Shown here one piece after another: positions 26,881 to 49,020 of a DNA stretch of 64,000 nt (positions are counted from its first letter, which is position 1; every line of letters begins with the position of its first letter). Under the pieces are notes generated by a model, which was not told the origin of the DNA, searched no databases, and saw nothing but the letters and a program-made list of their open reading frames with translations. This stretch comes from Candidatus Oleimmundimicrobium sp. Lineage in GTDB: Bacteria > Actinomycetota > Aquicultoria > UBA3085 > Oleimmundimicrobiaceae. The stretch is taken from NCBI RefSeq assembly GCF_030651595.1, contig NZ_JAUSCH010000004.1, positions 9,380 through 73,379 on the forward strand. Direction: 5' to 3'. Position numbers and translations under genes: made by a program.

Positions 26881-26895
26881 TTTAATAATGTGTAG

Positions 26896-28339: not shown

Positions 28340-28340
28340 A

Positions 28341-30888: not shown

Positions 30889-31692
30889 TTGAAAGGAAAG
30901 AAGATATTGGTTATTGGGGGCTCGGACCCGAGCGGGGGAGCCGGAATTCAGGTAGATAGATTAACCTGTGCCGATTTAGGAGTATACCCTTACAGTATTT
31001 TAACTGCAGTTATTGCTCAAAATAGTTCTAAGGTGTTGAGCATAGAGAGATTGTCTTCTGATATAATTTCCAAACAGTTGGAAGCAGTCTTTCTTGATAC
31101 GCGAATTGACACTGTTAAAATTGGAGCTCTTACTTCTATAGAAGCAGTTGAAGTTGTTTCAAGTTTTTTTGAAGAGCTTAAAGTGAAAAATATTGTGATT
31201 GACCCCGTGATTCAATCTTCCAGTGGGACATCTTTTCTTTCACCATCGGCAGTATCTTTAATGAAGATTCGTCTGTTTAGAATCGCTCGGGTTGTTACAC
31301 CAAACATCCCTGAAGCTGAAAGACTTACTGGATTTTCGATAAAGAATTTTGATGACATGAAAAAAGCAGCTGAAGCGATAAAAACACTTGGCCCGGAATG
31401 GGTGCTAATCAAAGGAGGGCATCTTCAGGGCGATGAGTGCACGGATTTTTTATTCAACGGAAATATTGAGCGGAAATATTCAAGCAAACGAATAAATAAA
31501 AATGTCAAAGGGACCGGTTGTATCTTCTCTTCCGCATTGGCTTCTCAGCTTGCTTTAAATAAAGATGTACCTGAAGCGGTAGAGTTGGCTAAACTATATG
31601 TTACTGAGAGAATTTCAAAAGCTATTTCTCTTGGAAAGGGTAACTTTCAATCCATTCCGTCTTTTTTTGAAAATTTTGAAGTTAATTGGTGA
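30889..31692 (+). CDS. thiD: hydroxymethylpyrimidine/phosphomethylpyrimidine kinase
   Basis: N-terminal IGGSDPSGGAGIQVD (ThiD/PdxK family); TTG start after AGAGGAG. Confidence 0.85.
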   Translation: MKGKKILVIGGSDPSGGAGIQVDRLTCADLGVYPYSILTAVIAQNSSKVLSIERLSSDIISKQLEAVFLDTRIDTVKIGALTSIEAVEVVSSFFEELKVKNIVIDPVIQSSSGTSFLSPSAVSLMKIRLFRIARVVTPNIPEAERLTGFSIKNFDDMKKAAEAIKTLGPEWVLIKGGHLQGDECTDFLFNGNIERKYSSKRINKNVKGTGCIFSSALASQLALNKDVPEAVELAKLYVTERISKAISLGKGNFQSIPSFFENFEVNW

Positions 31693-32389: not shown

Positions 32390-32416
32390 CTTCACGAAAA
32401 GGCTCACATTGTGTTA

Positions 32417-33997
32417 ATGCTGACTACAAAAGACCTACCAAATCTAATAAGAGCTTCTTTAAGTGCTCTTAAACGACACCAAGAAGAGATAAACAAGCTC
32501 AATGTTTATCCTGTTCCTGATGGTGACACCGGAACAAATATGGTTCTTACAATGGAAGCTGTTTGCAACGAACTTTCAAAGACTAAACCTGACACGATGG
32601 AAAAAATCTGTAAAACGATTACATATGGTTCACTCATGGGTGGACGGGGAAATTCAGGCGTAATACTTTCTCAAATAATTAAAGGCTTTTGTGAAATTTT
32701 ATCTTCGAAAGAATTCGTTAATTCAGTTTTTCTGGCAGAGGCATTAAAGAATAGCGTGCAGGTTGCATACAGAGCTATTAGAAAACCCGTAGAAGGAACA
32801 ATGCTAACCGTAATTAAAGATACAGCCGCTGCTTCAAAAAAATTTGATAAGGAAGTTGAATTGGATGTGTTTTTAGAATATATCCTTAATGAGGCAAAGA
32901 AATCTGTTATGAGAACACCCGAGCTTCTGCCCGTTCTTAAAGAAGCGGGAGTTGTTGATGCAGGCGGTTGGGGATTAGCGATTATGGGAAGCGGCATTTT
33001 ATCTGCGATAAAAGGTGAGGCGGAACATGAGGAGCTGACAGAATTTAATGTGCCAGTTTTACAGCCCACAGAAGAGATTTTTTTAGAGTACCAATATTGC
33101 ACCGAGTTTATTTTAAAAAGCAGCGGAATTGAGCTTTCTAAATTTGAGGAACAACTTGCCCCTTTAGGGGATTCGCTCTTAGTTGTTGGTTCTGAAACAT
33201 TAACCCATGTTCACATACATACCAATGAGCCGGGCACGGTTTTAAGCTTGGCAACAAATAAAGGTTCTGTATCGGAAATTAAAATAAATAACATGCAAGA
33301 GGAGGCTGCGATAAGAACCGAAAAAATTATGGCAGATACAGGTAAAGTTGGACTGGTTGCGGTGGCAAGCGGTGAAGGTATTAAGAAAATACTCTCAAGT
33401 TTAGGCGTGCAAAGGATTGTAAACGGGGGGCAAACTATGAATCCAAGTACTGCCGATATTTTGAAGGCAGTTGAAGATGTTAACGCATCAAAGGTTATTA
33501 TTCTCCCAAATAATAAAAATATAATTATGGCTGCTCAAAGAGTTTCAGAACTTACAAAAAAAGAGATTGGTGTTGTTCCAACGAAATCTATTCCTCAAGC
33601 TTTATCGGCTCTTTTGGCTTTTGAAGAAGAAAAGCCCTTTGCTTTAAATGTTAAAAACATGATGAGTTCTTTGTCTAATGTAAAGACCGGTGAAATAACA
33701 AAAGCGATTCGGAATTCAAAAAATTCAATTGGTAAAATTAAAAAGGGTGACTTCATTGGTCTTATTGATCACGAAGTGAACGTTTCTGGAAAATCTTTTG
33801 TAAAAATAGCTACTAAGCTAATAAACAACATGCTTGATGACGAAAGTGAAGTGGTCACGCTTTTGTTTGGAGAAGGAGTAAAAGAAAAAGATTTAGAAGA
33901 GCTATCTAAAATTATTTCAAAAGAGTATCCCGACATAGAAATAGAAATTCATGAAGGAGGACAAGCTCTTTATCCTTTAATTATCGGAGTGGAATAA
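32417..33997 (+). CDS. DAK2 domain fusion protein (YloV-like)
   Basis: N-terminal DAK2 motif LNVYPVPDGDTGTNM; ~525 aa; follows an Asp23 gene as in yloU-yloV. Confidence 0.8.
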   Translation: MLTTKDLPNLIRASLSALKRHQEEINKLNVYPVPDGDTGTNMVLTMEAVCNELSKTKPDTMEKICKTITYGSLMGGRGNSGVILSQIIKGFCEILSSKEFVNSVFLAEALKNSVQVAYRAIRKPVEGTMLTVIKDTAAASKKFDKEVELDVFLEYILNEAKKSVMRTPELLPVLKEAGVVDAGGWGLAIMGSGILSAIKGEAEHEELTEFNVPVLQPTEEIFLEYQYCTEFILKSSGIELSKFEEQLAPLGDSLLVVGSETLTHVHIHTNEPGTVLSLATNKGSVSEIKINNMQEEAAIRTEKIMADTGKVGLVAVASGEGIKKILSSLGVQRIVNGGQTMNPSTADILKAVEDVNASKVIILPNNKNIIMAAQRVSELTKKEIGVVPTKSIPQALSALLAFEEEKPFALNVKNMMSSLSNVKTGEITKAIRNSKNSIGKIKKGDFIGLIDHEVNVSGKSFVKIATKLINNMLDDESEVVTLLFGEGVKEKDLEELSKIISKEYPDIEIEIHEGGQALYPLIIGVE

Positions 33998-34051
33998 ACA
34001 AGCAGAATGGATAATATTTGAAATTTAACGTAAAAAAAGGGGTTGATTGAG

Positions 34052-34903
34052 ATGGAGACAGAGAATGTTTCAATTGTAACAGACAGTACTGCTGATTTTG
34101 AACTTTCTTACTATAAAGAACATGATGTTTACATGGTGCCTTTAATGGTTCGCTTCAAGGAAGAGTCGTTTAAAGATTGGGTCGACATCAAACCAAAAGA
34201 ATTTTATAGGAAATTAAAGGCCTCAGATGTTCTTTCAAAGACATCTCAACCAACTGTTGCTCAATTTGAGGAAGTTTATAAAAAACTATCTCGTGACCAC
34301 ACACATATTATTTCAATTCATATTTCTTTAAAACTGAGCGGCACAGTTCAATCTGCTCAGATAGCCAGTGAAAATATAAATATACCGGTTACTGTAATTG
34401 ACGGAAAATCAGCGTCTTTATTAACCGGCATTTTAGTTGATTTGGCCGTTAAAGCGCGAGATGAAGGAAAAACTGCCGAGGAAATTGTTCAAATTGTTAA
34501 TAAAGCACGGGATAGAGCAAAGATTTTATTTGTTGTTGACACTTTAAAATATCTTCATTTGGGCGGACGCATTGGAAAAGCGCAAGCGTTAGTTGGTAGT
34601 TTGTTAAAAATTAAGCCGATTCTTACGCTGGAAGATGGCCTGGTGGCGCCTTATAAGAAAGCGAAAGGAACCAGAAAAGCCATACAAGAAATTGTTTCTA
34701 TTGCGAGAGAAAACATAGATCAAGACAAACCATATCGTTTAGTCGTTGCGCATGCCGATGCTCCTGACAATCTAGCGTATTTAAAGGAACTTCTCTTGAA
34801 AGAAGGATTTAAATCAAACCAAATAATCGAGGGCGAGGTTGGCGCTGTTATCGGAACATATACCGGTCCCGGTGCTGTCGCATTAGTTTATTACCAGGAA
34901 TAA
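34052..34903 (+). CDS. DegV family fatty-acid-binding protein
   Basis: DegV pattern (IVTDSTADF... SQPTVAQFEEVY...); ATG 34052 (ORF track TTG 34043). Confidence 0.85.
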   Translation: METENVSIVTDSTADFELSYYKEHDVYMVPLMVRFKEESFKDWVDIKPKEFYRKLKASDVLSKTSQPTVAQFEEVYKKLSRDHTHIISIHISLKLSGTVQSAQIASENINIPVTVIDGKSASLLTGILVDLAVKARDEGKTAEEIVQIVNKARDRAKILFVVDTLKYLHLGGRIGKAQALVGSLLKIKPILTLEDGLVAPYKKAKGTRKAIQEIVSIARENIDQDKPYRLVVAHADAPDNLAYLKELLLKEGFKSNQIIEGEVGAVIGTYTGPGAVALVYYQE

Positions 34904-38327: not shown

Positions 38328-38786
38328 ATGGATATAATGACTTTAATTGATAAAATTGAAGATATTATTACCACAGCACGAAGGCTTCCTTTAGGTAACT
38401 CAATAATGATAAATGAGCAGAAGCTATTTGATATCATAGACGAGATGCGTGCGTCTATACCCGATGAGCTTAAACAAGCAAGGTGGATTGTCAAAGAGAG
38501 ACAAGAGATGTTAGCTGAAGCTGATAAAGAAGCAAACGCAATCATTGAAGAAGCTCGTAAAAATGCTGAACAGGTTGCATCAGAGCAAGAAATAGTAAAG
38601 ATGGCCGAAGCCAAGGCCAATGAAATTATTTCAGATGCAAAAGAAAAGGAAAGAGAAATTCGTTTAGGTGCAGAAGATTATGCTGACGAGATGCTTGCAA
38701 ATCTTGAAGTTAACTTGGGAAAACTTCTTGCGGCAGTTCAAAGAGGTAGAGATAGGTTGCAAGGAAAGATACAGCCTAAATCTTAA
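38328..38786 (+). CDS. hypothetical coiled-coil protein (ATP-synthase-b/FliH-like helical repeats)
   Basis: 152-aa highly charged alpha-helical ORF with GGAGG RBS; conserved position between coaD and yceD; family not recognised. Confidence 0.45.
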   Translation: MDIMTLIDKIEDIITTARRLPLGNSIMINEQKLFDIIDEMRASIPDELKQARWIVKERQEMLAEADKEANAIIEEARKNAEQVASEQEIVKMAEAKANEIISDAKEKEREIRLGAEDYADEMLANLEVNLGKLLAAVQRGRDRLQGKIQPKS

Positions 38787-38813
38787 AGTTTGCTATGTAG
38801 TTTATAATTCAAA

Positions 38814-38848
38814 AGTTCTTGTAAAAAGACCTGCAAGAACTTTTTTAT
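38814..38848 (+). terminator. intrinsic terminator
   Basis: AGTTCTTG-(12 nt loop)-CAAGAACT followed by TTTTTT, 28 nt after the 38786 stop. Confidence 0.6.
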
Positions 38849-38896: not shown

Positions 38897-39421
38897 ATGA
38901 ACACATTAATTATTGATGTATCTGATATTTTAACAACAGTAGGGACCAAAAAAGAGTTTAAGTTCGAGAATGAATTTAAGCCATTATATGCTGGAAAAAA
39001 ATTAAACTTTACCGGTCCGCTAAATTTCAATTTTTTTATAGAAAATGTTGGTTTAGAGCTGCTGGTTAAGGGAGATGTTCAAGGGAAACTGAGGTTTACA
39101 TGCAATCGGTGTTTAATAGAGTTTAAAGCTAAAGTGAAAGTAAACCTTGATGAAGTTTTTACACTCGAAAAAAATGAATTTGATACCAAAGAGACCTTTA
39201 AGGTTGTTGATAACAAAATTGATTTACGGGGTGCTGTTGAACAGGCCTTTTTGCTTGAATTGCCAATAAGGCCAATTTGCAAAGAAAATTGTAAGGGACT
39301 CTGCTTTAAATGTGGGCAAAATTTAAATTTAAGTAAATGTAATTGTTTAGATGAAAAGATTGATGTAAGGTTGTTAAAGTTGAAAAAACTCAAAGAAGAA
39401 TTGGAAAAAAACAGGGATTAA
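38897..39421 (+). CDS. yceD: YceD/DUF177 family protein (23S rRNA accumulation protein)
   Basis: Cysteine pairs CNRC and CKENCKGLCFKCGQNLN...CNC typical of DUF177; immediately upstream of rpmF. Confidence 0.8.
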   Translation: MNTLIIDVSDILTTVGTKKEFKFENEFKPLYAGKKLNFTGPLNFNFFIENVGLELLVKGDVQGKLRFTCNRCLIEFKAKVKVNLDEVFTLEKNEFDTKETFKVVDNKIDLRGAVEQAFLLELPIRPICKENCKGLCFKCGQNLNLSKCNCLDEKIDVRLLKLKKLKEELEKNRD

Positions 39422-39437: not shown

Positions 39438-39617
39438 TTGGCAGTTCCTAAGAGAAGAAAGTCTAGGGCGAAGCGTGATTCAAGGAGATCCCAGAATAAA
39501 AAAATTAAAATAGTTGTAACATCTGAGTGTCCTCAATGTCATCAACAAAAATTGCCGCATCATGTTTGTCCGGAATGTGGATATTATGACGGTGAACAAG
39601 TTTTGGAGGTTAAGTAA
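39438..39617 (+). CDS. rpmF: 50S ribosomal protein L32
   Basis: Not in the ORF track (59 aa). TTG after AGGAGG; translation MAVPKRRKSRAKRDSRRSQNKK...CPQCHQQKLPHHVCPECGYYDGEQVLEVK is classic L32 with a CxxC...CxxC zinc ribbon. Confidence 0.85.
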   Translation: MAVPKRRKSRAKRDSRRSQNKKIKIVVTSECPQCHQQKLPHHVCPECGYYDGEQVLEVK

Positions 39618-39620
39618 TAG

Positions 39621-40610
39621 GTGCATTGCTCTTCAGTTACTATCGCGGTTGATGCCATGGGAGGTGATTTTGCTCCCAGAGAGATAGTTAAAGGTTCCTA
39701 TCTTGCAGCTCAAGAGCCGGGAATTAATATAATATTGGTTGGCTTAGAAAGTCAAATAAAGAGCGAATTAAATAAACTTGGTTCAGCTAAAAATATTCGT
39801 ATTGAAAATGCCCCAGACATAATTAAAATGGAAGAACATGCAGCCAGAGCTGTTAAATCTAAACCCCATTCATCAATTTCAATTGCCGCTCAACTTGTAA
39901 AAGAAAACAAGGCTAATGCTATGGTGTCAGCTGGTAATACAGGTGCGGCCATGAGCGCTGCTTTGTTAAAAATTGGACGGATTAAAGGTGTTTCCAGGCC
40001 GGCAATTGCTGTTGTTGTTCCAACCTTAAATAAACTCGTTGTTCTTTTGGATGCTGGAGCAAATGTCGAGTGTAAGCCGCATAATATATTTCAATTTGCG
40101 GTAATGGGGAAATCATATGCATCAAAAGTTTTAGGAGTTAATAAACCGACAATTGGCTTGTTAAATATTGGGAAGGAACACGAAAAAGGGAGCGAATTTC
40201 TTCAGAAATCACATAAATTATTAGAATCTATTGAGGGTTTTGTGGGCAACATTGAAGGAAATGATATTCCTGAAGGAAAAACCGATGTAGTTGTATGTGA
40301 TGGCTTTATCGGAAATGTGGTACTAAAATTAATGGAAGGTATATCTTCGGTGTTTTTTTCTGAAGTAAAAAGAGTGGTTAACGCTTCTGTTTCTGGAAAA
40401 ATTGGCGGATTTTTAATTACTCCTTCTTTTAAAATGATTAAAAACAAGTTGGATTCCGAGGAATATGGTGGAGCTCATCTTTTAGGAATCAACGGAGTTT
40501 GTATTATTGGTCATGGAAATTCAAACGCAAAAGCTTTTAAAAATGCAATCATGGTTGCCAAGCGAGCTGTTTTGGAAAATATCGTTTCTGAAATCAAAAA
40601 AGATATTTAG
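39621..40610 (+). CDS. plsX: phosphate acyltransferase PlsX
   Basis: N-terminal IAVDAMGGDFAP motif. Confidence 0.9.
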   Translation: MHCSSVTIAVDAMGGDFAPREIVKGSYLAAQEPGINIILVGLESQIKSELNKLGSAKNIRIENAPDIIKMEEHAARAVKSKPHSSISIAAQLVKENKANAMVSAGNTGAAMSAALLKIGRIKGVSRPAIAVVVPTLNKLVVLLDAGANVECKPHNIFQFAVMGKSYASKVLGVNKPTIGLLNIGKEHEKGSEFLQKSHKLLESIEGFVGNIEGNDIPEGKTDVVVCDGFIGNVVLKLMEGISSVFFSEVKRVVNASVSGKIGGFLITPSFKMIKNKLDSEEYGGAHLLGINGVCIIGHGNSNAKAFKNAIMVAKRAVLENIVSEIKKDI

Positions 40611-40633
40611 GGGGAAACATTTTAAACAAAGAA

Positions 40634-41632
40634 ATGTCTGTCGGGATTATTGGAACAGGTTCTTATTTGCCAAGCAAGGTTCTTACCAATTTTGATTTGG
40701 AAAAAATTGTAGATACAAGCGATGAGTGGATTAAGACTCGTACCGGTATTTCAGAACGAAGAATTATTGATGATAATGCTAATATTTCTGATATGGCTGT
40801 TGAGGCGAGCAAGAAGGCTCTTTTGGATGCCGATCTTGAAGTTTCCGACATTGATTTAATAATCCTGGCAACCTGTTCACCTGAGACATTAATGCCCTCG
40901 ACATCTTGTCTTGTTCAACAAAAATTGGGAGCGAAAACTATTCCGGCTTTTGATGTATCCGCGGGCTGTACGGGATTAATCTATGCAATTACTATTGGAA
41001 CTCAATTTATAGAAACAGGCATGTACGAAAAAGTTCTGGTTATTGGAGCCGATGCTCTTTCGAGGCATCTTGATTGGACTGATCGTACAACGTGTGTATT
41101 ATTTGGTGATGGTGCGGGAGCCGTTATCCTTGGTAAAGTTCAAAAGGGTTATGGGATTATCTCAAATTATTTAGCAGCAGACGGAAAGGGAGCCGACCTT
41201 TTAAAAATTCCGGCTGGTGGATCAGGCTTGCCTGCGACTGAAGACTCATTTGAAAAAAAACTTCATTGTGTCCAAATGAGCGGAAGCGAAGTTTTTAAAT
41301 TTGCAACCAGAGCATTACCTCGGGCTACAAAAGCAGCACTTAAAAGAGCAAATCTAACAATAGATGACGTAAAATATATAATTCCTCATCAGGCAAATAT
41401 AAGAATACTTGAAAATGTTGCTAAGAAATTTGGGGTTGGTTTTGATAAACTCATCAAAAATATTGATAAGTACGGAAACACATCGACAGCTTCTATAGCA
41501 ATTGCTCTTGATGAACTTCAGAGGGCAAATAAGATACACGAGGGAGATATTTTGCTCCTTGTTGGTTTTGGTGCGGGCTTAACCTGGGGAGCTAACGTGA
41601 TTAAATGGGTTAAGTATAAAAAAAGTAAATGA
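40634..41632 (+). CDS. fabH: 3-oxoacyl-ACP synthase III
   Basis: Active-site Cys context AFDVSAGCTGLIYA, His/Asn blocks; 332 aa. Confidence 0.95.
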   Translation: MSVGIIGTGSYLPSKVLTNFDLEKIVDTSDEWIKTRTGISERRIIDDNANISDMAVEASKKALLDADLEVSDIDLIILATCSPETLMPSTSCLVQQKLGAKTIPAFDVSAGCTGLIYAITIGTQFIETGMYEKVLVIGADALSRHLDWTDRTTCVLFGDGAGAVILGKVQKGYGIISNYLAADGKGADLLKIPAGGSGLPATEDSFEKKLHCVQMSGSEVFKFATRALPRATKAALKRANLTIDDVKYIIPHQANIRILENVAKKFGVGFDKLIKNIDKYGNTSTASIAIALDELQRANKIHEGDILLLVGFGAGLTWGANVIKWVKYKKSK

Positions 41633-41650: not shown

Positions 41651-42808
41651 GTGGATTATTTTCTAACAGAAGAACAACAAATGATAAAGGAACTAGCAAA
41701 AAAAATAGCTGACGAAAAAGTGATTCCGGTAAGAGCCAAATTAGATGAAGAAGAGGAATTTCCTTGGGCTATTATGAAAGATTTAGCTCAGGCAGACCTA
41801 TTTGGTCTTTATATGCCGGAAGAATACGGAGGAATTGGTTTCGGTTGCTTTGAAACGGTTCTCGCGGTTGAAGAGTTGAGTAAAGCATGTTGTGGAGTGG
41901 CAGTAAGTTATGCGGCAAGTGTTCTCGGAGCGTATCCTATCCTTTTATTTGGCTCAGAAGACCAGAAGAAAAAGTATCTACCGGATTTAGCATCTGGTAA
42001 GAAGCTTGGAGCTTTTGGTTTAACGGAAGCCAATGCGGGAAGCGATGCTTCGGCAATTCAAACAAAAGCCGATAAAGATGGAGATTTTTACGTCCTCAAT
42101 GGAACTAAACAATGGATAACCAATGGTGGCGAAGCGGAAACTTACACGATAATCGCCATGACAAATAAAAACAAAGGAAGCCGAGGAGCCACTGCTTTTA
42201 TTGTTGAAAAAGGAACGCCTGGCTTTTCGTTTGGGAAAAAAGAGAAAAAACTTGGAATACGATGCTCGGCAACAAGAGAGCTGGTTTTTGAAAATTGTCG
42301 AATACCCAAGGAAAATATTTTAGGAAAAGAAGGAATGGGTTTTATAGTTGCCATGAGAACCTTAGATATGACCCGTCCGGGGATTGGAGCTCAAGGCGTT
42401 GGTGTTGCTCAAGGAGCCTTCGATGCCGCTCTTGATTATTCGCGTCAAAGGATGCAGTTTGGTAAGCCGATATCTTCATTTCAAGTAATCCAGCATATGT
42501 TTGCAGATATGGCTATTCAAATTGAAGCTGCGCGCGCGCTGGTTTACGCGACTGCAAAAATGATTGATGGTGGAGCTAAGAATTTTTCGAAAGAATCCGC
42601 CATGGCTAAAACCTTTGCTTCTGATATGGCGATGGAAGTTACCATTAACGCTGTTCAAATAATGGGTGGTTATGGTTATATGCGTGAGTACCCGGTTGAA
42701 AAAATGATGAGGGACGCAAAAATTATTCAAATTTACGAGGGGACAAATCAAGTTCAGAGGAATGTAATTGCCCGGCAATTAATTAAAGAAAATATGGGTA
42801 AAAAATAG
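41651..42808 (+). CDS. acyl-CoA dehydrogenase (butyryl-CoA dehydrogenase-like)
   Basis: ACAD N-, middle- and C-domain pattern (…GLTEANAGSDA…, …YEGTNQVQ…); 385 aa. Confidence 0.85.
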   Translation: MDYFLTEEQQMIKELAKKIADEKVIPVRAKLDEEEEFPWAIMKDLAQADLFGLYMPEEYGGIGFGCFETVLAVEELSKACCGVAVSYAASVLGAYPILLFGSEDQKKKYLPDLASGKKLGAFGLTEANAGSDASAIQTKADKDGDFYVLNGTKQWITNGGEAETYTIIAMTNKNKGSRGATAFIVEKGTPGFSFGKKEKKLGIRCSATRELVFENCRIPKENILGKEGMGFIVAMRTLDMTRPGIGAQGVGVAQGAFDAALDYSRQRMQFGKPISSFQVIQHMFADMAIQIEAARALVYATAKMIDGGAKNFSKESAMAKTFASDMAMEVTINAVQIMGGYGYMREYPVEKMMRDAKIIQIYEGTNQVQRNVIARQLIKENMGKK

Positions 42809-42825
42809 ATATTTGGAGGACGGTT

Positions 42826-43611
42826 TTGAACATTATCGTTTGTATAAAACAGGTTCCTGATACAACCAAAGTAAAGATAGACCCAGAAACCAATACCTTA
42901 GTAAGAGAAGGGGTAAAGAGCATAATTAACCCGTTTGATATGTATGCGTTGGAAGAAGCAATTAGAACAAAGGAGAAAGTTGGCGGAAATATTAGCGTGT
43001 TAACCATGGGTCCTCCCCAGGCCGCAGAGGCATTAAGGGAGGCAATTGCAATGGGTGTAGACGATGTTTATTTGTTATCGGATAGAGCATTTGCCGGGGC
43101 CGATACCCTCGCAACTTCTTATACTTTATCAAAAGGCATAGAAAAGATAGAGCAGTTTGACCTCATAATTTGCGGAAAACAGACAATAGATGGAGACACG
43201 GGACAGGTGGGCCCCGAGGTTGCTCAGAAATTAGGAATACCGGTTGTCACATATGTGAGCAAAATTGAAAATATAAAAAATGGTCAAATCAAACTTAAGC
43301 GAATGGTAGAAGACGGTTACGAAGTAATTGAGGCAGAAACACCTTTGTTGATAACGGTTGTAAAAGAGATAAATGAACCCAGGATGCCATCTCTTCGGGG
43401 GACAATGAAGGCAAAGAAAGCTGAGATACCAACATGGAACGCAAATGATATTGGGGCAGAAAGTGAGAGAGCGGGTCTTTCCGGCTCTCCAACCCAAGTC
43501 GTTCGAATTTTTGCTCCAGAGATTTCCAAAAAGTGCGAGATTTTAGAGGGAGAACCAACGGAAATTGCTGAAAAGCTTATTAAAAAGTTAAAAAAGGGAA
43601 AGGTTATCTAA
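42826..43611 (+). CDS. etfB: electron transfer flavoprotein beta subunit
   Basis: N-terminus MNIIVCIKQVPDT typical of EtfB/FixA. Confidence 0.85.
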   Translation: MNIIVCIKQVPDTTKVKIDPETNTLVREGVKSIINPFDMYALEEAIRTKEKVGGNISVLTMGPPQAAEALREAIAMGVDDVYLLSDRAFAGADTLATSYTLSKGIEKIEQFDLIICGKQTIDGDTGQVGPEVAQKLGIPVVTYVSKIENIKNGQIKLKRMVEDGYEVIEAETPLLITVVKEINEPRMPSLRGTMKAKKAEIPTWNANDIGAESERAGLSGSPTQVVRIFAPEISKKCEILEGEPTEIAEKLIKKLKKGKVI

Positions 43612-43618
43612 GTAGTTT

Positions 43619-44842
43619 TTGGGCCAAAACCTTATTTACCGGGAGGAATTTTTGAGTATTAAAGTTGATTTGAGCAAATGCAAGGGTTGTAAACTCTGCG
43701 CAAAAGCTTGTATGTATGGGGCAATTGATATTGTTGAGAAGAAAGCATATATAAACAACAACTGCACCCTGTGTGGCGCGTGTGTCTCGGCTTGTAAATA
43801 TGGAGCCATTTCTATCTCAAAGAAAAAGAAAACAGCTTTCAATGAAGGCGATTATGAGGGAGTTTGGGTTTTTGCTGAGCAGAAGCAAGGCAAATTAGCC
43901 GGAGTAGCTTTTGAGCTTCTTGGTGAAGGGAGAAAGTTGGCCGATGAGTTGGGAGTTAAGCTTTCTGCCGTCTTATTGGGAGAAAAAATTAGCGATTTAG
44001 CCAATGAACTTATATTTTATGGAGCAGATAGGATTTATATTGTTGATAACCCAATCTTGAAAGATCGTCTCGATGAACCTTATGCAAATACTCTTGTTCA
44101 ACTAATTCACGAGCATAAACCGGAAATTTTTTTAGCCGGGGCAACTTCTTTTGGGCGTTCATTAATTCCCAGAGTTGCGGCAACTTTGGAAACAGGGCTT
44201 ACTGCCGACTGCACAAGTCTTGCTATTGATAAAAAAAATAAATTTTTATTACAGACTCGCCCGGCATTTGGCGGAAATATCATGGCTACCATAATTTGCC
44301 CGAACAAGAGACCGCAAATGGCTACGGTTAGACCCAAAGTGATGAAGTGTGCTCAAAGAGACGACACGAGAAGTGGTGAAATAATTGAGGAGACAATATT
44401 GAAACCCACTTCTTTAAGGGTAAAGTTGTTGGACTTTATGGAGGAGCTAAATAATAAGGTAAACTTAGAAGAAGCAGAGATTGTTGTCGCGGGTGGAAGG
44501 GGTCTGGGTAAAGCCGAGAATTTTAAGCTTATTCACGAGATGGCCTCGATTTTAGGGGCAGCTGTGGGTGCTTCAAGAGCGGCAGTTGATGCTGAATGGA
44601 TACCCTATTCTCATCAGGTTGGACAAACCGGCAAGACTGTTTCTCCAAAACTATATATTGCTTGTGGAATTTCCGGAGCTATTCAACATCTTACCGGTAT
44701 GCAAACTGCCGATAATATTGTCGCCATAAATAAAGACCCGGATGCTCCAATTTTTAATGTTGCCAACTATGGTATAGTTGGTGACTTATTTGAAATAATT
44801 CCGGCCATCACAGCTAAACTAAAAGAGGTTAGCGGGGGTTAA
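43619..44842 (+). CDS. etfA: electron transfer flavoprotein alpha subunit with N-terminal 2x[4Fe-4S] ferredoxin domain
   Basis: Two CxxCxxCxxxC ferredoxin motifs followed by an EtfA/FixB fold; a TTG at 43652 after GGGAGG may be the real start. Confidence 0.85.
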   Translation: MGQNLIYREEFLSIKVDLSKCKGCKLCAKACMYGAIDIVEKKAYINNNCTLCGACVSACKYGAISISKKKKTAFNEGDYEGVWVFAEQKQGKLAGVAFELLGEGRKLADELGVKLSAVLLGEKISDLANELIFYGADRIYIVDNPILKDRLDEPYANTLVQLIHEHKPEIFLAGATSFGRSLIPRVAATLETGLTADCTSLAIDKKNKFLLQTRPAFGGNIMATIICPNKRPQMATVRPKVMKCAQRDDTRSGEIIEETILKPTSLRVKLLDFMEELNNKVNLEEAEIVVAGGRGLGKAENFKLIHEMASILGAAVGASRAAVDAEWIPYSHQVGQTGKTVSPKLYIACGISGAIQHLTGMQTADNIVAINKDPDAPIFNVANYGIVGDLFEIIPAITAKLKEVSGG

Positions 44843-44845
44843 TGA

Positions 44846-45799
44846 TTGAGTAAAAAAATTGCTTTCATCTTTCCAGGACAAGGTTCTCAATATATAGGAA
44901 TGGGAAAAGATTTAAAGGAGTCCATTAAAGAGTTAGCCGATATTTTTAGGCAAGCTGATGAAGTCTTAAAAAGGAAGATATCAAGTATTTGTTTTGAGGG
45001 TCCCGAAAGTGAGCTCGGCAAAACCATTAATACTCAGCCTGCGATTTTTGCAGTTAATCATGTTTGTTACGTTGCATTAAAATTAAATGGAATAGAGCCA
45101 GATATAGTGGCCGGACATAGCCTAGGAGAGTATAATGCTCTTGTTGCAGCTGATGTTATTGATTTTAAAACCGGTTTGCGGCTAGTTGAAAAAAGAGCGC
45201 AATTTATGGAGAAAGCGGCCTCAAAAAGACCAGGCAAAATGGCTGCAGTTATTGGATTAGATTCAAAAATTGTTGAAAAAATAATTGAACCACTAAAAAA
45301 GAGAGGAATAATTAATATAGCGAATTATAATTGTCCAGGGCAACTTGTGGTATCGGGAGAGAACTTGCTTATTAAAGAGGCTAGTTATCTCTTAAAGCAA
45401 AGTGGAGCAAAAAGGGTTATTGAACTTTCGGTAAGCGGTGGATTTCACTCTAAATTAATGGACGAAGCAGAAATTGAATTCTCTGAAGTTTTAAATGGAG
45501 TATCTTTTTCTAAACCCGGACGTGGCATAGTTTCAAATTATACAGCGGAAAGTTCAACCAATCCATTGGAGTTAAAAGAGGCCTTAAAATGCCAAATTAC
45601 AGGATCGGTTCGTTGGGAGCAATTAATTAAAAAAATTCAAACTTTTGGTGTCAATAAATTTATCGAAGTTGGTCCGAAAAAAGTTTTAACGGGTCTGGTT
45701 AGAAGGATTGCACCTGAAGCAATTTTATTTAATATAGAAGATGTTGATAGTTTAAAAGCCACCGTTTCCAAGATAAGGGAGGTGAAGAGTGACGTTTAA
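44846..45799 (+). CDS. fabD: malonyl CoA-ACP transacylase
   Basis: FIFPGQGSQ and GHSLGEY motifs. Confidence 0.9.
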   Translation: MSKKIAFIFPGQGSQYIGMGKDLKESIKELADIFRQADEVLKRKISSICFEGPESELGKTINTQPAIFAVNHVCYVALKLNGIEPDIVAGHSLGEYNALVAADVIDFKTGLRLVEKRAQFMEKAASKRPGKMAAVIGLDSKIVEKIIEPLKKRGIINIANYNCPGQLVVSGENLLIKEASYLLKQSGAKRVIELSVSGGFHSKLMDEAEIEFSEVLNGVSFSKPGRGIVSNYTAESSTNPLELKEALKCQITGSVRWEQLIKKIQTFGVNKFIEVGPKKVLTGLVRRIAPEAILFNIEDVDSLKATVSKIREVKSDV

Positions 45800-46532
45800 A
45801 AATAAAGTTGCTCTTGTTACGGGCAGCACAAAAGGAATAGGCAAGGAGATTTGCCTAAAATTTGCTGAATTAGGAGCGGATATCGTCGTAAATGCTCGCA
45901 GTAGCGAGGTTGAAGCGGAACCACTTATTAATAAGATAAAAAATTTGGGCAGGAAGGCAATTTTCATTCAAGCCGATGTTAGTGTTTTTGATGAAGCATC
46001 GTCCTTAATTGAACAAGCCATTCAAAAAATGGGCAAGGTAGATATTTTAATCAATAATGCAGGAATAACTCGTGATAACCTTATAATTAGAATGAAAGAG
46101 GATGAGTGGGACTCTGTATTGAATGTAAACTTAAAAGGGACATTCAATTGTATAAAAGCAGTATCGCGACATATGATAAAAAGGCGTGAGGGAGTAATAA
46201 TTAATCTCTCGTCTGTTGTGGGGCTTATCGGCAACGCGGGGCAGGCAAATTATTCTGCTTCAAAAGCCGGTGTAATAGCTTTAACAAAAACAGTGGCAAA
46301 AGAGTTTGCCTCTCGTGGAATTAGGGCCAATGCCGTTGCTCCGGGATTTATTCAAACAAAGATGACGGAGAGGTTATCGGATGAGGTAAAAAATAAAGTG
46401 TTGGAGAATATTCCGCTTGCTAAATTTGGTTCTCCTAGAGACGTGGCCAATGTAGTGGCCTTTCTTGCATCAGATGATGCAAGATATATAACCGGACAAG
46501 TTATAAGTGTTGATGGTGGAATGATAATGTAA
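45789..46532 (+). CDS. fabG: 3-oxoacyl-ACP reductase
   Basis: SDR motifs TGSTKGIG, NNAG, YSASK. Confidence 0.9.
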   Translation: MTFKNKVALVTGSTKGIGKEICLKFAELGADIVVNARSSEVEAEPLINKIKNLGRKAIFIQADVSVFDEASSLIEQAIQKMGKVDILINNAGITRDNLIIRMKEDEWDSVLNVNLKGTFNCIKAVSRHMIKRREGVIINLSSVVGLIGNAGQANYSASKAGVIALTKTVAKEFASRGIRANAVAPGFIQTKMTERLSDEVKNKVLENIPLAKFGSPRDVANVVAFLASDDARYITGQVISVDGGMIM

Positions 46533-46565
46533 CTTATATTTATTAATTCAAAGGAGGAGATTTAA

Positions 46566-46802
46566 GTGTCACAAGAAAATTTTGAGAAGGTTAAGGGAAT
46601 TATAGCGGAGCAATTAGGAGTCGATAAAGATATCATTAAAATTGAGACATCTTTTGTTGACGATCTCGGAGCAGATTCATTAGATATTGTTGAGTTGGTT
46701 ATGGCTTTAGAGGAAGAATTTGGTTTAGAAATATCTGATGAAGACGCGGAGAAGATAACAACTGTCGGCCAGGTAATTAAATATATAGAAAACAAGTCAT
46801 AA
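46566..46802 (+). CDS. acpP: acyl carrier protein
   Basis: [21 protein letters not shown] phosphopantetheine-attachment motif; 78 aa. Confidence 0.9.
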
Positions 46803-46813
46803 AGGAGAGAAGC

Positions 46814-47800
46814 ATGAAATTACCGGTATTGGAAATAGGTAAACTTCGAGCGCCTGTTCCCATTGTTCAAGGAGGGATGGCTGTCAGAATTTCTCTTGCA
46901 CCTCTTGCAGCGGCTGTAGCCAATGAAGGGGGAATTGGTTTGATTGCGGCTTCAGGAATTCACCCCCCGGAGGTTTCAGAGCAAATTAAAAAAGCGAAAA
47001 GATTGACCGATGGAATAGTAGGCATAAACGTAATGGTCGCGGTTAAAGAATTTAAAGATATTGTTACAACAGCCATACATGAAAAAGTTGATTTAATAGT
47101 TGCCGGTGCCGGTTTTTCTAGAGATATTTTTATTCTTGGAAAGGAAAACAATGTTCCAATTGTTCCGATTGTTTCGTCGGAAAGAGTAGCTCGTCTTGCA
47201 GAAAAATTTGGCGCGTCGGCTATTGTGGTTGAAGGGAAAGAAGCAGGCGGTCATCTTGGCACAGATAAACCTCTTTTATCGATACTGCCTGGAATTATTA
47301 ATAGTGTGAAGATACCGGTAATAGCGGCGGGAGGAATTCTTAAGGGTTCAGATATAGCCCGGGTGCTTTCTATGGGGGCGAAGGGTGTTCAAATGGGGAC
47401 TCGTTTCGCAGCTAGCGATGAGAGCAGCGCGGCTTCGGCCTGGAAAGAAGCATACGTGAACGCAAAAGCTGAAGACGTTGTCATTATTGAAAGTCCGGTT
47501 GGGATGCCCGGAAGAGCTTTAAGAACAAAATTTGTTAAAGATCTTTTTGCGAACAAAGTTCCTACCTTTAAAGATATAAAAAAATGTGTAACTTGCTTAA
47601 AACACTGCAAGAGAAATTATTGCATTATGCAGGCGCTTGAAAGTGCTCGAATGGGTGACCTGGAAAAAGGCCTTATTTTTTGCGGTGAGCGTGTAGGGGA
47701 AATAAATGATATTCTTCCGGTTAAAAAAATAATTGCTAATCTTATTAAAGAATTTAATGAAAGTGTTGGAGGTGCAAAGGAATGCCCCGAAGAGTTGTAA
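46814..47800 (+). CDS. fabK: enoyl-ACP reductase II (FabK-type, nitronate monooxygenase fold)
   Basis: [11 protein letters not shown]-binding N-terminus and NPD/TIM-barrel pattern; positioned in the fab operon. Confidence 0.85.
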
Positions 47801-49020
47801 TTACCGGCCTTGGGCCTGTTACTTCTATTGGTATAGGCAAAACTGCTTTTTGGGAATCGCTGATTAAGGGAAAATCAGGGATAGGAGAGATAACTTTTTT
47901 TGATTCAAACGATTTCAGCTCTCGAATAGCGGGCGAGATTAAAAATTTTGAACCGAAAGATTATCTCGAGGCAAAAGAAGCGCGAAGAATGGATAGATTC
48001 TGTCAATTTGCTTTGGCGGCTGCAACACTAGCTCTTAAAGATGCAAATTTAAAGATAACAGACTCAATTGCTGATAAAGTTGGAGTTATTATAGGGTCAG
48101 GCATAGGCGGGATAAAAACGTTAGAAGAACAACATAAAATTTTATTGCAAAAGGGGCCTAAAAGAGTTAGCCCATTTCTTGTGCCAATGATGATTTCCGA
48201 TATTGCGGCTGGCAATGTCTCAATTGCTCTGGGGGCAAAAGGTCCAAATTTTTGTACCGTATCTGCTTGTGCCTCCGCAACACATGCTATTGGGGAAGCA
48301 TTTGAGACTATTAGACGAGGTGCGGCTGAGGTTTGTATAACGGGTGGGGCAGAAGCCCCAATAACACCACTGTCTGTTGCAGGTTTTTGTGCGGCTCGGG
48401 CTCTTTCAACAAGAAACGATGAGCCAACCAAAGCAAGCAGGCCATTTGATGCAAAACGAGACGGATTTGTTATTGCAGAAGGTGCGGGAATAGTGGTTTT
48501 AGAAAGCTTTGAAAGCGCTGTAAACAGAGGAGCTCAAATTTATGCTGAGATAGTGGGTTATGGTGCTACAGGGGATGCCTATCACATGACGGCACCAGCT
48601 CCGTTTGGCGAAGGGGCAGCTCGTGCCATGCAAAAGGCAATTGATGGGTCGGGTTTGGACTTTAAAGAAGTGGATTATATAAATGCGCACGGAACATCAA
48701 CTCTCTATAACGATGAATTTGAAACTTCGGCTATTAAAAAGGTTTTTGGGGAGCATGCCTACAATCTCTTAGTTAGTTCAACAAAATCTATGACCGGTCA
48801 TACTTTGGGGGCAGCCGGGGGTATTGAGATGATTGCGTGTGCGCTTTCAATTGAAAAAAAAGTTATTCCTCCAACAATCAATTATGAATACGCCGATCCA
48901 AAATGTGACTTAAATTACGTTCCAAACAAAGCTATTAAAAAATCGGTTTCGGTTGTCATGTCGAATTCTTTAGGTTTCGGTGGCCATAACGCTAGTATAA
49001 TAATGAAAGCAATTGAGTAA
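47782..49020 (+). CDS. fabF: 3-oxoacyl-ACP synthase II
   Basis: Active-site Cys context TVSACASA, His-His blocks; 412 aa. Confidence 0.95.

What the first reader, a model, noticed from the sequence alone, without database searches (positions are those of the whole stretch)
41651..44842. Acyl-CoA dehydrogenase plus EtfB plus ferredoxin-fused EtfA cassette inserted inside the fab operon
The operon is otherwise canonical (plsX-fabH ... fabD-fabG-acpP-fabK-fabF). Between fabH and fabD sit three genes with 5-20 nt spacing. They are a butyryl-CoA-dehydrogenase-like ACAD, an EtfB, and an EtfA carrying an N-terminal 2x[4Fe-4S] ferredoxin domain (CxxCxxCxxxC twice). This is the signature of an electron-bifurcating Bcd/EtfAB-type complex. 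Finding it co-transcribed with type II fatty-acid synthesis genes is atypical. It suggests either an enoyl-ACP/enoyl-CoA reductase role coupled to ferredoxin, or redox coupling of lipid synthesis. FabK is also present, so the cassette is not simply the missing enoyl reductase.
Basis: partly seen in the sequence, partly recalled or inferred. Interest (0 to 1): 0.55.

Follow-up and report, generated by a model that had tools for sequence, protein, structure and literature searches.

The report
Likely new fatty-acid enoyl reductase
Three genes for an acyl-CoA-dehydrogenase plus electron-transfer-flavoprotein complex sit in the fatty-acid synthesis operon exactly where related bacteria carry the enoyl reductase FabK, and the same linkage recurs in anaerobes of at least five named phyla, which points to an undescribed and possibly energy-conserving way of doing the last reduction step of fatty-acid synthesis.

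Summary
The cassette is real. ACAD (41651-42808), EtfB (42826-43611) and ferredoxin-fused EtfA (43619/43652-44842) lie between fabH and fabD in one tightly packed operon of an anaerobic actinomycete (Ca. Oleimmundimicrobium).

The Etf pair is of the bifurcating type and is closest to CarDE of Acetobacterium woodii. The ACAD belongs to its own highly conserved family, about 54% identical to Bcd.

The arrangement is not a recent insertion. Composition matches the host. Of 80 orthologue loci, 43 carry fab genes within the 10-kb flanks. The ACAD tree follows taxonomy.

The key correction concerns the gene read as "fabK". It is a separate four-cysteine NMO paralogue, NMO2, whose tail resembles the FabX Fe-S subdomain. 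In a sister order and in Heliobacteria and Halanaerobiales, the cluster is plsX-fabH-FabK-fabD-fabG-acpP-NMO2-fabF. A genuine FabK therefore fills exactly the slot held here by ACAD-EtfBA. No locus has both.

My best reading, at about 0.55, is that the cassette is the enoyl-thioester reductase of type II fatty-acid synthesis, probably coupled to ferredoxin reduction. No biochemical test was possible. I found no paper describing this.

The parts
41651..42808 (+). Acyl-CoA dehydrogenase-fold flavoprotein (385 aa) of a distinct, highly conserved family. Proposed catalytic subunit of an enoyl-thioester (enoyl-ACP) reductase.
   Evidence: Pfam Acyl-CoA_dh_N/M/1. Best NCBIfam hit is AcrC at 470 bits, below its cut-off of 640. 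Best PDB hit is C. difficile Bcd 5OL2_C at 434 bits. The YEGT motif that carries the catalytic Glu in other ACADs (role from my own knowledge) is present. The family is at least 63.5% identical internally, 54% to Bcd and 44% to MCAD.
42826..43611 (+). EtfB, the small Etf subunit, of the bifurcating type.
   Evidence: PF01012. Best PDB hits are CarD 6FAH_B at 278 bits, then T. maritima, A. fermentans, A. woodii Lct and C. difficile EtfB at 234-244 bits. Non-bifurcating human and Paracoccus EtfB score 101-107 bits. The motifs SDRAFAGADTLATS and GKQTIDGDTGQVGP align with the bifurcating structures.
43619..44842 (+). EtfA, the large Etf subunit, with an N-terminal 2x[4Fe-4S] ferredoxin domain (about 43655-43843). 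The probable true start is TTG 43652.
   Evidence: PF01012 + PF00766 + Fer4 families. CarE 6FAH_A aligns from residue 13 to 404 at 420 bits, including the ferredoxin domain. RBS and start codon read. 36 of 40 orthologous EtfA carry both Cys motifs.
39621..41632 (+). plsX (39621-40610) and fabH (40634-41632), immediately upstream in the same operon.
   Evidence: TIGR00182 at 359 bits and TIGR00747 at 427 bits, both above cut-off.
44846..46802 (+). fabD (44846-45799), fabG (45789-46532) and acpP (46566-46802), immediately downstream. The fabD start lies 3 nt after the etfA stop.
   Evidence: TIGR00128, TIGR01830 and TIGR00517 all above cut-off. Junction read.
46814..47800 (+). NMO2, a four-cysteine NMO-family flavoprotein. 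It is not a canonical FabK and is related to both FabK and FabX.
   Evidence: TIGR03151 scores 208 bits against a cut-off of 453. C258/C261/C265/C270 are invariant in 56 homologues and the motif is present in 79 of 80 loci. The C-terminal part aligns best with the H. pylori FabX Fe-S subdomain. It coexists with a true FabK in relatives. The AlphaFold model (pLDDT 92.8) matches FabK (TMq 0.81-0.84) and FabX (TMq 0.83-0.87) about equally.
47782..49020 (+). fabF, the last gene of the fatty-acid synthesis block.
   Evidence: TIGR03150 at 640 bits.
38811..38844 (+). Terminator-like hairpin (13-bp stem followed by a T run) that probably ends the preceding unit. The operon yceD-rpmF-plsX...fabF would start after it.
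   Evidence: yceD at 38897-39421 by Pfam. rpmF at 39438-39617 was read, and Ribosomal_L32p occupies the same position in L085 and L086.

Best explanation
The ACAD, EtfB and ferredoxin-fused EtfA form a Bcd/CarC-Etf-type complex that serves as the enoyl-thioester reductase of type II fatty-acid synthesis in this organism. It replaces FabK.

Proposed mechanism:
1. NADH reduces the FAD in EtfB.
2. One electron goes through the EtfA FAD to the ACAD FAD and on to trans-2-enoyl-ACP (or the equivalent CoA thioester), giving acyl-ACP.
3. The other, low-potential electron leaves through the two [4Fe-4S] clusters of the EtfA ferredoxin domain to ferredoxin.

Each elongation cycle would then recover part of the energy of the very exergonic enoyl reduction as reduced ferredoxin.

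Shown here: gene identities, Etf type, operon structure, conservation, and positional replacement of FabK.
Inferred: the reductive direction, ACP as the substrate carrier, and actual bifurcation.
For: 1. Positional replacement. In L167 (Ca. Aquicultorales, the same class as the window organism), L168, L169, Heliomicrobium modesticaldum (L085) and Selenihalanaerobacter (L086), the cluster is plsX-fabH-FabK-fabD-fabG-acpP-NMO2-fabF-rnc. The FabK there scores 488-513 bits against a cut-off of 453. The window has the same order with ACAD-EtfB-EtfA in the FabK slot.
2. Slot contents over all 169 loci. Between fabH and fabD there are 13 loci with ACAD-EtfB-EtfA, 9 with FabK, 1 with ACAD alone and 36 empty. 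No locus has both ACAD and FabK.
3. Conserved linkage. 43 of 80 orthologue loci hold fab genes and 38 have one within 600 nt of the ACAD(-Etf) block: Actinomycetota 3/3, Thermodesulfobacteriota and relatives 13/13, Margulisiibacteriota 3/3, Rokuibacteriota 1/1 and Nitrospirota 15/42. These fall into at least five different gene orders. Apart from NMO2 in five loci, no other candidate enoyl reductase lies in those clusters.
4. Chemistry. The only step of fatty-acid synthesis that an ACAD can catalyse is the enoyl/acyl interconversion. Bcd-Etf and CarCDE are established cases where a bifurcating Etf drives an ACAD in the reductive direction (PMC5691135 abstract; PMC9232219).
5. Etf type. The Etf is of the bifurcating type and has the CarE-like ferredoxin domain.
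6. Not a butyrate or beta-oxidation gene. No thiolase, hbd or crt neighbour appeared in any locus examined. Non-fab copies sit among housekeeping genes.
7. Not a recent insertion. GC content and codon usage match the host, and the ACAD tree groups by phylum.
8. Constraint. The ACAD is the most conserved gene of the cluster: 70-77% identity across phyla, against about 50% for fabH, 42% for fabD, 57% for fabF and 65% for acpP.
9. Pocket. The family lacks the one-residue helix-E insertion of both Bcds. It has Ala at the MCAD Glu99 position and Ser/Ala at the Gln95 position. From my memory of the MCAD and VLCAD structures, this predicts a deeper acyl pocket than a C4-specific enzyme.
Against: - No biochemical or genetic test exists.
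- The ACAD is 54-57% identical to true butyryl-CoA dehydrogenases, and nothing in the sequence shows a switch from CoA to ACP.
- I could not check whole genomes for FabI, FabK, FabL or FabV encoded elsewhere.
- NMO2 is present in this operon and is the only reductase-like gene in 34 Clostridia-type clusters, most of them from human-gut metagenomes. It may itself be an enoyl reductase, which would make the cassette redundant here.
- In 12 of 12 Bacillota loci and 27 of 42 Nitrospirota loci, no fab gene lies within 600 nt of the ACAD(-Etf) block.
- Etf proteins closely related to bifurcating ones can be non-bifurcating, as in the C. propionicum acryloyl-CoA reductase (PMC9232219).
- The locus sets were collected with ACAD and NMO2 as baits, so the mutual exclusion with FabK rests on a biased sample.
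Confidence: 0.55

Rival explanations
1. The cassette is an enoyl reductase of fatty-acid synthesis but does not bifurcate. NADH reduces the enoyl thioester through Etf and the ACAD without net ferredoxin reduction, as in the acryloyl-CoA reductase AcrABC of Clostridium propionicum.
For: The best NCBIfam hits of all three proteins are AcrC, AcrB and AcrA. A non-bifurcating Etf that is closely related to bifurcating ones is documented (PMC9232219).
Against: All three Acr scores are far below the cut-offs: 470 against 640, 248 against 475 and 378 against 600. EtfA keeps a complete CarE-like 2x[4Fe-4S] domain in 36 of 40 orthologues. The known role of that domain is electron exchange between ferredoxin and the bifurcating FAD (PMC9232219).
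Confidence: 0.15
2. The ACAD works in the oxidative direction on acyl-ACP. It would be a backtracking dehydrogenase, possibly also an isomerase, that introduces the double bond for anaerobic unsaturated fatty-acid synthesis, as FabX does. Etf would dispose of the electrons by confurcation onto NAD+.
For: FabX shows that a backtracking acyl-ACP dehydrogenase is used in fatty-acid synthesis (PMC8626469). ACAD-fold acyl-ACP dehydrogenases exist: MbtN is one, and its NCBIfam model gives a weak hit of 71 bits. Etf bifurcation is reversible, as in Ldh-EtfAB.
Against: The cassette occupies the FabK slot, not the NMO2/FabX-like slot, and it excludes FabK rather than accompanying it. This operon already carries a FabX-like candidate in NMO2. 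An oxidative role would leave the many fab clusters that have the cassette and no other reductase without an in-cluster enoyl reductase.
Confidence: 0.12
3. The cassette is an ordinary acyl-CoA-level enzyme of the butyryl-CoA dehydrogenase or chain-elongation type, or a supplier of saturated acyl-CoA primers for FabH. It would be placed in the fab operon only for co-regulation of lipid or redox metabolism.
For: It is 54-57% identical to characterised Bcds. FabH, which uses acyl-CoA primers, is the upstream neighbour. In Bacillota the three genes stand apart from fab genes.
Against: No thiolase, 3-hydroxyacyl-CoA dehydrogenase or crotonase lies next to it in any locus examined. Several clusters have the ACAD but no adjacent fabH (L023, L063, L076, L077, L079). 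The family lacks the helix-E insertion of Bcd. Chance or regulatory co-location does not explain why it alternates with FabK in one slot.
Confidence: 0.13
4. The cassette is an electron-supply module for the Fe-S flavoprotein NMO2. Etf, through its ferredoxin domain, would deliver electrons to the [4Fe-4S] cluster of NMO2, and NMO2 would be the real enoyl reductase.
For: NMO2 seems to have an Fe-S subdomain where FabK binds NAD(P)H. Both modules lie in this operon.
Against: The two modules are independent. About 35 fab clusters have the cassette without NMO2. 34 clusters have NMO2 without the cassette, and 11 loci pair NMO2 with FabK. This model gives the ACAD subunit no role.
Confidence: 0.05

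Closest known systems
CarCDE, the caffeyl-CoA reductase-Etf complex of Acetobacterium woodii (PDB 6FAH)
   Same: Both have a three-subunit ACAD + EtfB + EtfA architecture. EtfA carries the same N-terminal 2x[4Fe-4S] ferredoxin domain. CarE and CarD are the best solved-structure matches, at 420 and 278 bits.
   Different: CarC is only the 26th-best ACAD match, at 320 bits. CarCDE reduces an aromatic enoyl-CoA in caffeate respiration. This cassette is embedded in the fatty-acid synthesis operon and its substrate is unknown.
Bcd-EtfAB, the bifurcating butyryl-CoA dehydrogenase complexes of C. difficile and A. fermentans (5OL2, 4KPU/4L1F)
   Same: These give the best ACAD structure matches, at 434 and 415 bits, with the YEGT catalytic-Glu motif present. 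The Etf is of the same type.
   Different: Identity is 54% against at least 63.5% within the family. The helix-E insertion is absent, and residues at the pocket floor are small. EtfA has an extra ferredoxin domain. There are no thl/hbd/crt neighbours, and the genomic context is biosynthetic.
FabK, the FMN- and NADH-dependent enoyl-ACP reductase II
   Same: The cassette occupies the same slot between fabH and fabD in otherwise collinear operons, and it never co-occurs with FabK in the loci sampled. The proposed reaction is the same.
   Different: There is no homology: the cassette is an ACAD/Etf with FAD and Fe-S, and FabK is a TIM-barrel FMN protein. The cassette has three subunits. It would use two NADH and reduce ferredoxin.
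AcrABC, the acryloyl-CoA reductase of Clostridium propionicum (non-bifurcating ACAD-Etf)
   Same: It gives the best NCBIfam models for all three proteins and shares the ACAD + Etf architecture.
   Different: All scores are below the equivalog cut-offs.
FabX of Helicobacter pylori (for the neighbouring gene NMO2, not the cassette)
   Same: Both are NMO-family FMN proteins with a C-terminal Cys cluster. Three of the four FabX cluster cysteines align. TMq to FabX is 0.83-0.87.
   Different: The Cys spacing differs: CxxCxxxCxxxxC here, Cx3Cx3Cx11C in FabX. Identity is only 28%. The barrel is closer to T. maritima FabK, at 177 against 129 bits. The function is untested.

Membership tests
Bifurcating ACAD-Etf complexes (Bcd-EtfAB / CarCDE type) | ACAD subunit with FAD-binding fold and catalytic glutamate | tested here: met
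   Three ACAD Pfam domains. The YEGT motif aligns with Bcd and MCAD.
Bifurcating ACAD-Etf complexes (Bcd-EtfAB / CarCDE type) | EtfB of the type that binds a second FAD and NADH instead of AMP | tested here: met
   Sequence evidence only. The five best PDB matches are all bifurcating EtfB (234-278 bits), against 71-107 bits for non-bifurcating ones. SDRAFAGADTLATS and GKQTIDGDTGQVGP align with CarD and with A. fermentans and T. maritima EtfB. That these motifs mark the FAD site is from my memory of the literature.
Bifurcating ACAD-Etf complexes (Bcd-EtfAB / CarCDE type) | EtfA with the FAD-binding shuttle domain and, in the CarE subtype, an N-terminal 2x[4Fe-4S] ferredoxin domain | tested here: met
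   PF00766 at 1e-38 and Fer4 families. CarE aligns over residues 13-404. Eight cysteines form two CxxCxxCxxxC motifs.
Bifurcating ACAD-Etf complexes (Bcd-EtfAB / CarCDE type) | NADH-dependent, enoyl-thioester-dependent ferredoxin reduction | not testable with these tools
   Needs anoxic enzyme assays.
Enoyl-ACP reductases of type II fatty-acid synthesis (a functional class) | Encoded with, and co-transcribed with, the fab genes | tested here: met
   Gaps of 3-40 nt and no internal terminator or promoter above the shuffled expectation. Linkage is conserved in 43 of 80 loci. Co-transcription itself is inferred.
Enoyl-ACP reductases of type II fatty-acid synthesis (a functional class) | Substitutes for a known reductase in equivalent operons | tested here: met
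   The slot between fabH and fabD holds FabK in 9 loci and ACAD-EtfBA in 13, and never both. One FabK locus, L167, is from the same class as the window organism.
Enoyl-ACP reductases of type II fatty-acid synthesis (a functional class) | Reduces trans-2-enoyl-ACP, and no other reductase is needed in the genome | not testable with these tools
   No whole-genome access to the source or related genomes, and no assay.
Butyryl-CoA dehydrogenase (C4-specific, butyrate pathway) | Neighbourhood with thiolase, hbd and crt, and a Bcd-type shallow pocket (helix-E insertion) | tested here: not met
   No such neighbours appeared. The one-residue insertion present in both Bcd structures is absent from all family members. 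The meaning of the insertion is from memory.
Acryloyl-CoA reductase AcrABC (NCBIfam NF042970-NF042972) | Score above the equivalog cut-offs | tested here: not met
   378 against 600, 248 against 475 and 470 against 640 bits.
FabK (TIGR03151), for the gene at 46814-47800 | Score above the equivalog cut-off | tested here: not met
   208 bits against a cut-off of 453. True FabK in related operons scores 488-513 bits.
FabK (TIGR03151), for the gene at 46814-47800 | FabK-type (NAD(P)H-side) C-terminal region | tested here: inconclusive
   The C-terminal part carries a four-Cys insertion that is absent from T. maritima FabK. That part aligns best with the FabX Fe-S subdomain rather than with FabK.
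FabX (H. pylori dehydrogenase/isomerase), for the gene at 46814-47800 | C-terminal [4Fe-4S] subdomain with four ligand cysteines, and dehydrogenase/isomerase activity | tested here: inconclusive
   Four cysteines are invariant and three align with FabX C304, C308 and C320. The spacing differs and identity is 28%. The fold match is as good to FabK as to FabX. Activity is untested.

The most novel reading that the evidence does not exclude
A flavin-based electron-bifurcating enoyl-ACP reductase. In many strict anaerobes (Aquicultoria, Thermodesulfovibrionia, Thermodesulfobacteriota, Margulisiibacteriota, Rokuibacteriota and some Clostridia), the last step of every fatty-acid elongation cycle would be done by an ACAD-EtfB-(ferredoxin)EtfA complex acting on ACP thioesters. 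It would use 2 NADH and return reduced ferredoxin, so that lipid synthesis is partly energy-conserving. This would be a further, non-homologous class of enoyl-ACP reductase alongside FabI, FabL, FabK and FabV.
Probability: 0.35. Interest if true: 0.85.

Novelty: new variant of a known kind. Interest (0 to 1): 0.7.

Why it matters
The enoyl-reduction step has several non-homologous enzymes (FabI, FabL, FabK, FabV) and is a major antibiotic target. A further class built from an ACAD and a bifurcating Etf would matter in four ways.

- It would change how fatty-acid synthesis is annotated in large groups of uncultured anaerobes, where these genes are now labelled "butyryl-CoA dehydrogenase" and read as fermentation or beta-oxidation.
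- It would show that biosynthesis, and not only catabolism, can be coupled to ferredoxin reduction. That affects the energy budgets of energy-limited subsurface organisms.
- It would give a natural ACAD that works on long-chain or ACP substrates in the reductive direction, which is of interest for engineered fatty-acid and reverse-beta-oxidation pathways.
- The side finding concerns a four-cysteine FabK/FabX-like protein that is conserved between acpP and fabF, including in gut Clostridia. It bears on an open question: how clostridia make unsaturated fatty acids, or reduce enoyl-ACP, without the known enzymes.

Tried and rejected
- Exact-sequence look-up of the window ACAD found nothing. The organism was identified instead from the 100% identical hit P0001.
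- Ten literature searches were run. Searches looked for any link between ACAD/Etf and enoyl-ACP reduction or fab operons and found none. One search found no paper on the genus. One search, on pocket residues, returned only irrelevant papers.
- The Etf classification paper and the VLCAD structure paper could not be read. One guessed PMC id was a wrong paper. The meaning of the EtfB motifs and of the MCAD Gln95/Glu99 positions therefore rests on my memory and is marked as such.
- Recent horizontal insertion is rejected. GC is 0.41 against 0.36-0.43 for neighbouring genes. Codon-usage correlation is 0.82-0.88, within the range of the other genes. The cassette is present in relatives, and the ACAD tree follows phyla.
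- An own promoter or terminator is rejected.
- Genes lying between the ACAD and Etf in some loci, and the genes after fabF, were read by eye from their translated sequences (no family search was run on them). They look unrelated: a mechanosensitive channel, an HD-domain protein, rpiB, glyA, nrdR and ribD. None is a hidden reductase or FabZ.
- The fold search of NMO2 did not separate FabK from FabX.
- The family pI of about 6.0 says nothing about ACP docking.
- I did not find a sequence feature that separates CoA use from ACP use.

Full report
**What is in the sequence**

The window is a block of housekeeping genes from an anaerobic actinomycete. The ACAD is 100% identical to an NCBI protein of Candidatus Oleimmundimicrobium sp., which belongs to class Ca. 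Aquicultoria, order Ca. Subteraquimicrobiales.

On the + strand the genes run as follows:
- yceD (38897-39421)
- rpmF (39438-39617)
- plsX (39621-40610)
- fabH (40634-41632)
- ACAD (41651-42808)
- etfB (42826-43611)
- etfA (43619-44842)
- fabD (44846-45799)
- fabG (45789-46532)
- acpP (46566-46802)
- an NMO-family gene (46814-47800)
- fabF (47782-49020)
- then rnc, smc, ftsY and ffh

Gaps inside the block are 3-40 nt or are overlaps. Shine-Dalgarno sequences precede the ACAD, etfB and etfA starts, and the fabD start lies 3 nt after the etfA stop. The etfA start is probably TTG 43652, not 43619. That start fits the CarE alignment and homologue lengths.

Promoter-like and terminator-like matches in 37-54 kb equal the shuffled expectation. 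The one hairpin inside the cassette lies in conserved coding sequence. A good terminator-like hairpin at 38811-38844 precedes yceD.

**What the three proteins are**

*EtfA.* The best solved relative is CarE of the A. woodii caffeyl-CoA reductase-Etf complex. It scores 420 bits and aligns from the first cysteine motif to the C-terminus. Next come the EtfA of T. maritima EtfABCX, A. fermentans, C. difficile and A. woodii Ldh-Etf, all of them bifurcating enzymes. Human and Paracoccus EtfA are far behind.

*EtfB.* The pattern is the same: 278 bits to CarD, 234-244 bits to the other bifurcating EtfB, and 71-107 bits to non-bifurcating ones. The motifs SDRAFAGADTLATS and GKQTIDGDTGQVGP are shared with the bifurcating structures.

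*The ferredoxin domain.* In this family it relays electrons between external ferredoxin and the bifurcating FAD (PMC9232219).

*The ACAD.* The best structure matches are the Bcd subunits of the C. difficile and A. fermentans bifurcating complexes, and the YEGT motif that carries the catalytic glutamate is present. However, it belongs to a family of its own:
- Members from different phyla are 63.5-92% identical to each other, but only about 54% identical to the two Bcds and 44% to MCAD.
- The family lacks the one-residue helix-E insertion of both Bcds.
- It carries Ala (in at least 90% of members) at the position of MCAD Glu99, and Ser or Ala at the position of MCAD Gln95.

From my memory of the MCAD and VLCAD structures, those two residues form the floor of the acyl pocket, and small residues there deepen it. 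I could not check this against the papers, so it is a lead and not a test.

All three proteins hit the AcrABC models best among NCBIfam models, but far below the cut-offs.

**Is it a recent insertion?**

No. Three lines of evidence agree.
- GC content and codon usage are like those of the neighbouring genes.
- A scan of one genome per species with the ACAD returned 80 loci with 68-92% identity.
- Mapping the window's proteins onto those loci and clustering their ORFs shows fab genes within the 10-kb flanks in 43 of 80. In 38 of 80, a fab gene lies within 600 nt of the ACAD(-Etf) block.

That close linkage holds in Actinomycetota 3/3, Thermodesulfobacteriota and Syntrophorhabdales 13/13, Margulisiibacteriota 3/3, Rokuibacteriota 1/1 and Nitrospirota 15/42.

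The gene orders differ between lineages:
- plsX-fabH-ACAD-etfB-etfA-fabD-fabG-acpP-(NMO)-fabF
- the same without fabD (Thermodesulfobacteriota)
- plsX-ACAD-fabD-fabG-acpP-fabF, without Etf or fabH (Syntrophorhabdales)
- fab...rnc-ACAD-x-etfB-etfA (some Clostridia and Nitrospiraceae)
- ACAD-etfB-etfA-fabD as a separate unit (Thermodesulfovibrionia)

The linkage has therefore survived repeated rearrangement. A neighbour-joining tree of the ACADs groups them by phylum, and the two Bcds sit outside on a long branch.

The ACAD is the most conserved protein of the cluster. It is more conserved than ACP or FabF.

Where the ACAD is not next to fab genes, it stands alone or with EtfBA among housekeeping genes. 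Examples are Dissulfurispira thermophila and Bacillota from biogas reactors. I never saw it next to thiolase, hbd or crt. The extra genes found between the ACAD and Etf in a few loci look unrelated when read by eye.

**The gene called fabK**

The NMO-family protein at 46814-47800 scores 208 bits on the FabK equivalog model, whose cut-off is 453. It has an insertion, [13 protein letters not shown], that T. maritima FabK lacks.

Its C-terminal part aligns best with H. pylori FabX. Three of its cysteines fall on FabX C304, C308 and C320. [quoted passage not shown]

The four cysteines are invariant in 56 homologues, and the motif is present in 79 of 80 loci found with this protein. An AlphaFold model (pLDDT 92.8) matches FabK (TMq 0.81-0.84) and FabX (TMq 0.83-0.87) about equally. 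I call this protein NMO2.

**The decisive comparison**

Five loci have the cluster plsX-fabH-NMO-fabD-fabG-acpP-NMO2-fabF-rnc:
- Heliomicrobium modesticaldum (L085)
- Selenihalanaerobacter shriftii (L086)
- a Ca. Aquicultorales MAG (L167)
- an Actinobacteria metagenome contig (L168)
- a Deferrimicrobium MAG (L169)

The first NMO in each is a genuine FabK, at 488-513 bits. The second is NMO2, at 211-239 bits in the three loci where it was scored. L167 belongs to the same class as the window organism.

The window's operon is collinear with these, except that ACAD-etfB-etfA stands where FabK stands. Over all 169 loci held, the interval between fabH and fabD contains the following:

| Content of the slot | Loci |
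|---|---|
| ACAD-etfB-etfA | 13 |
| FabK | 9 |
| ACAD alone | 1 |
| nothing | 36 |

No locus has both ACAD and FabK.

Two conclusions follow. NMO2 is not the FabK of these operons, because it coexists with FabK. And the cassette is the positional alternative to FabK. A strict anaerobe with FabK plus a FabX homologue has been described, namely Fusobacterium nucleatum (PMC11091888).

**Interpretation**

An ACAD can catalyse only one step of type II fatty-acid synthesis, the enoyl/acyl interconversion. Bifurcating Etf is the known device that runs an ACAD in the reductive direction with NADH. [quoted passage not shown]

I combine that chemistry with the positional replacement of FabK, the old and cross-phylum linkage with fab genes, and the absence of any other reductase in most of these clusters. 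The best explanation is then that the cassette is the enoyl-thioester reductase of fatty-acid synthesis. It most likely acts on enoyl-ACP and is most likely coupled to ferredoxin reduction through the EtfA ferredoxin domain. I put the reductase role at about 0.55, and the full bifurcating, ACP-specific version at about 0.35.

**What weakens this**

- There is no experiment.
- The ACAD looks like a CoA enzyme, and I found no sequence mark of ACP use.
- Other reductases may be encoded elsewhere in these genomes, which I could not check.
- NMO2 is the only reductase-like gene in 34 Clostridia-type clusters of the form fapR-plsX-fabH-fabD-fabG-acpP-NMO2-fabF, most of them from human-gut metagenomes. 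NMO2 may therefore itself be an Fe-S-dependent enoyl reductase. In that case this operon would have two reductases, as many bacteria do, and the replacement argument would still hold.
- The loci were gathered with the ACAD and NMO2 as baits, so the counts are not an unbiased survey.

The rivals are a non-bifurcating reductase, a backtracking acyl-ACP dehydrogenase for unsaturated fatty acids, an ordinary acyl-CoA enzyme or primer supplier, and an electron supplier for NMO2. They are set out separately with the results that would refute each.

**Novelty**

Five searches of the paper library for any link between ACAD/Etf and enoyl-ACP reduction or fab operons returned nothing relevant. The proteins are annotated only as "acyl-CoA dehydrogenase" or "butyryl-CoA dehydrogenase".

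The components are of known kinds, and the pathway role would be new. I rate it a new variant of a known kind. It has high interest for bacterial lipid synthesis and anaerobic energetics, and it is directly testable by complementation and anoxic enzymology.

Noticed in passing
window 46814-47800; L085-L169: A four-cysteine NMO-family protein (NMO2, motif CxxCLKxCxxxxC) sits between acpP and fabF in many anaerobes. In 34 Clostridia-type loci, most of them from human-gut metagenomes, it is the only reductase-like gene of the fab cluster. In Heliobacteria, Halanaerobiales and Aquicultorales it accompanies a true FabK. It could be an Fe-S-dependent enoyl reductase or a FabX-like enzyme for unsaturated fatty acids.
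   Followed up: partly
L001-L080: Across phyla the ACAD is more conserved (70-77% identity) than every other gene of the cluster, including acpP (about 65%) and fabF (about 57%). This suggests an unusually strong constraint, perhaps from several protein partners.
   Followed up: partly
L003-L034 and similar (Thermodesulfovibrionia): In many Nitrospirota the ACAD lies in a conserved phosphoribosyltransferase-PTPS-TldD context. EtfB-EtfA stay next to fabD, either directly downstream or about 8 kb away (L019; in L004 and L030 the locus ends after EtfA). Etf itself is therefore linked to fabD.
   Followed up: partly
L063, L076, L077, L079, L023: Syntrophorhabdales and related loci have plsX-ACAD-fabD-fabG-acpP-fabF (L023 lacks fabD) with neither fabH nor Etf adjacent. 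The ACAD takes the usual place of fabH.
   Followed up: no
window 32411-34903: A fatty-acid kinase pair, FakA (DAK2/FakA-like) and a DegV-family FakB, lies 5 kb upstream of the fab operon, after an Asp23-family gene. The organism can probably also incorporate exogenous fatty acids through PlsX.
   Followed up: no
window 26780-26889: A TPP riboswitch (64.7 bits) lies in front of a thiamine operon (thiE, thi4, thiC, an AIR-synthase-related protein that is probably thiL, and thiD) at 26935-31692.
   Followed up: no
window 38328-38786: A 152-aa ORF with no Pfam match lies between coaD and yceD and is followed by the best terminator-like hairpin of the region (38811-38844). The same ORF family (c69) is present in L001 and L002.
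   Followed up: no
window 39618-39621: There is no fapR between rpmF and plsX, unlike the collinear Firmicutes clusters (L085-L087, L169). plsX starts 3 nt after the rpmF stop, so the fab genes appear to be transcribed with yceD-rpmF.
   Followed up: no
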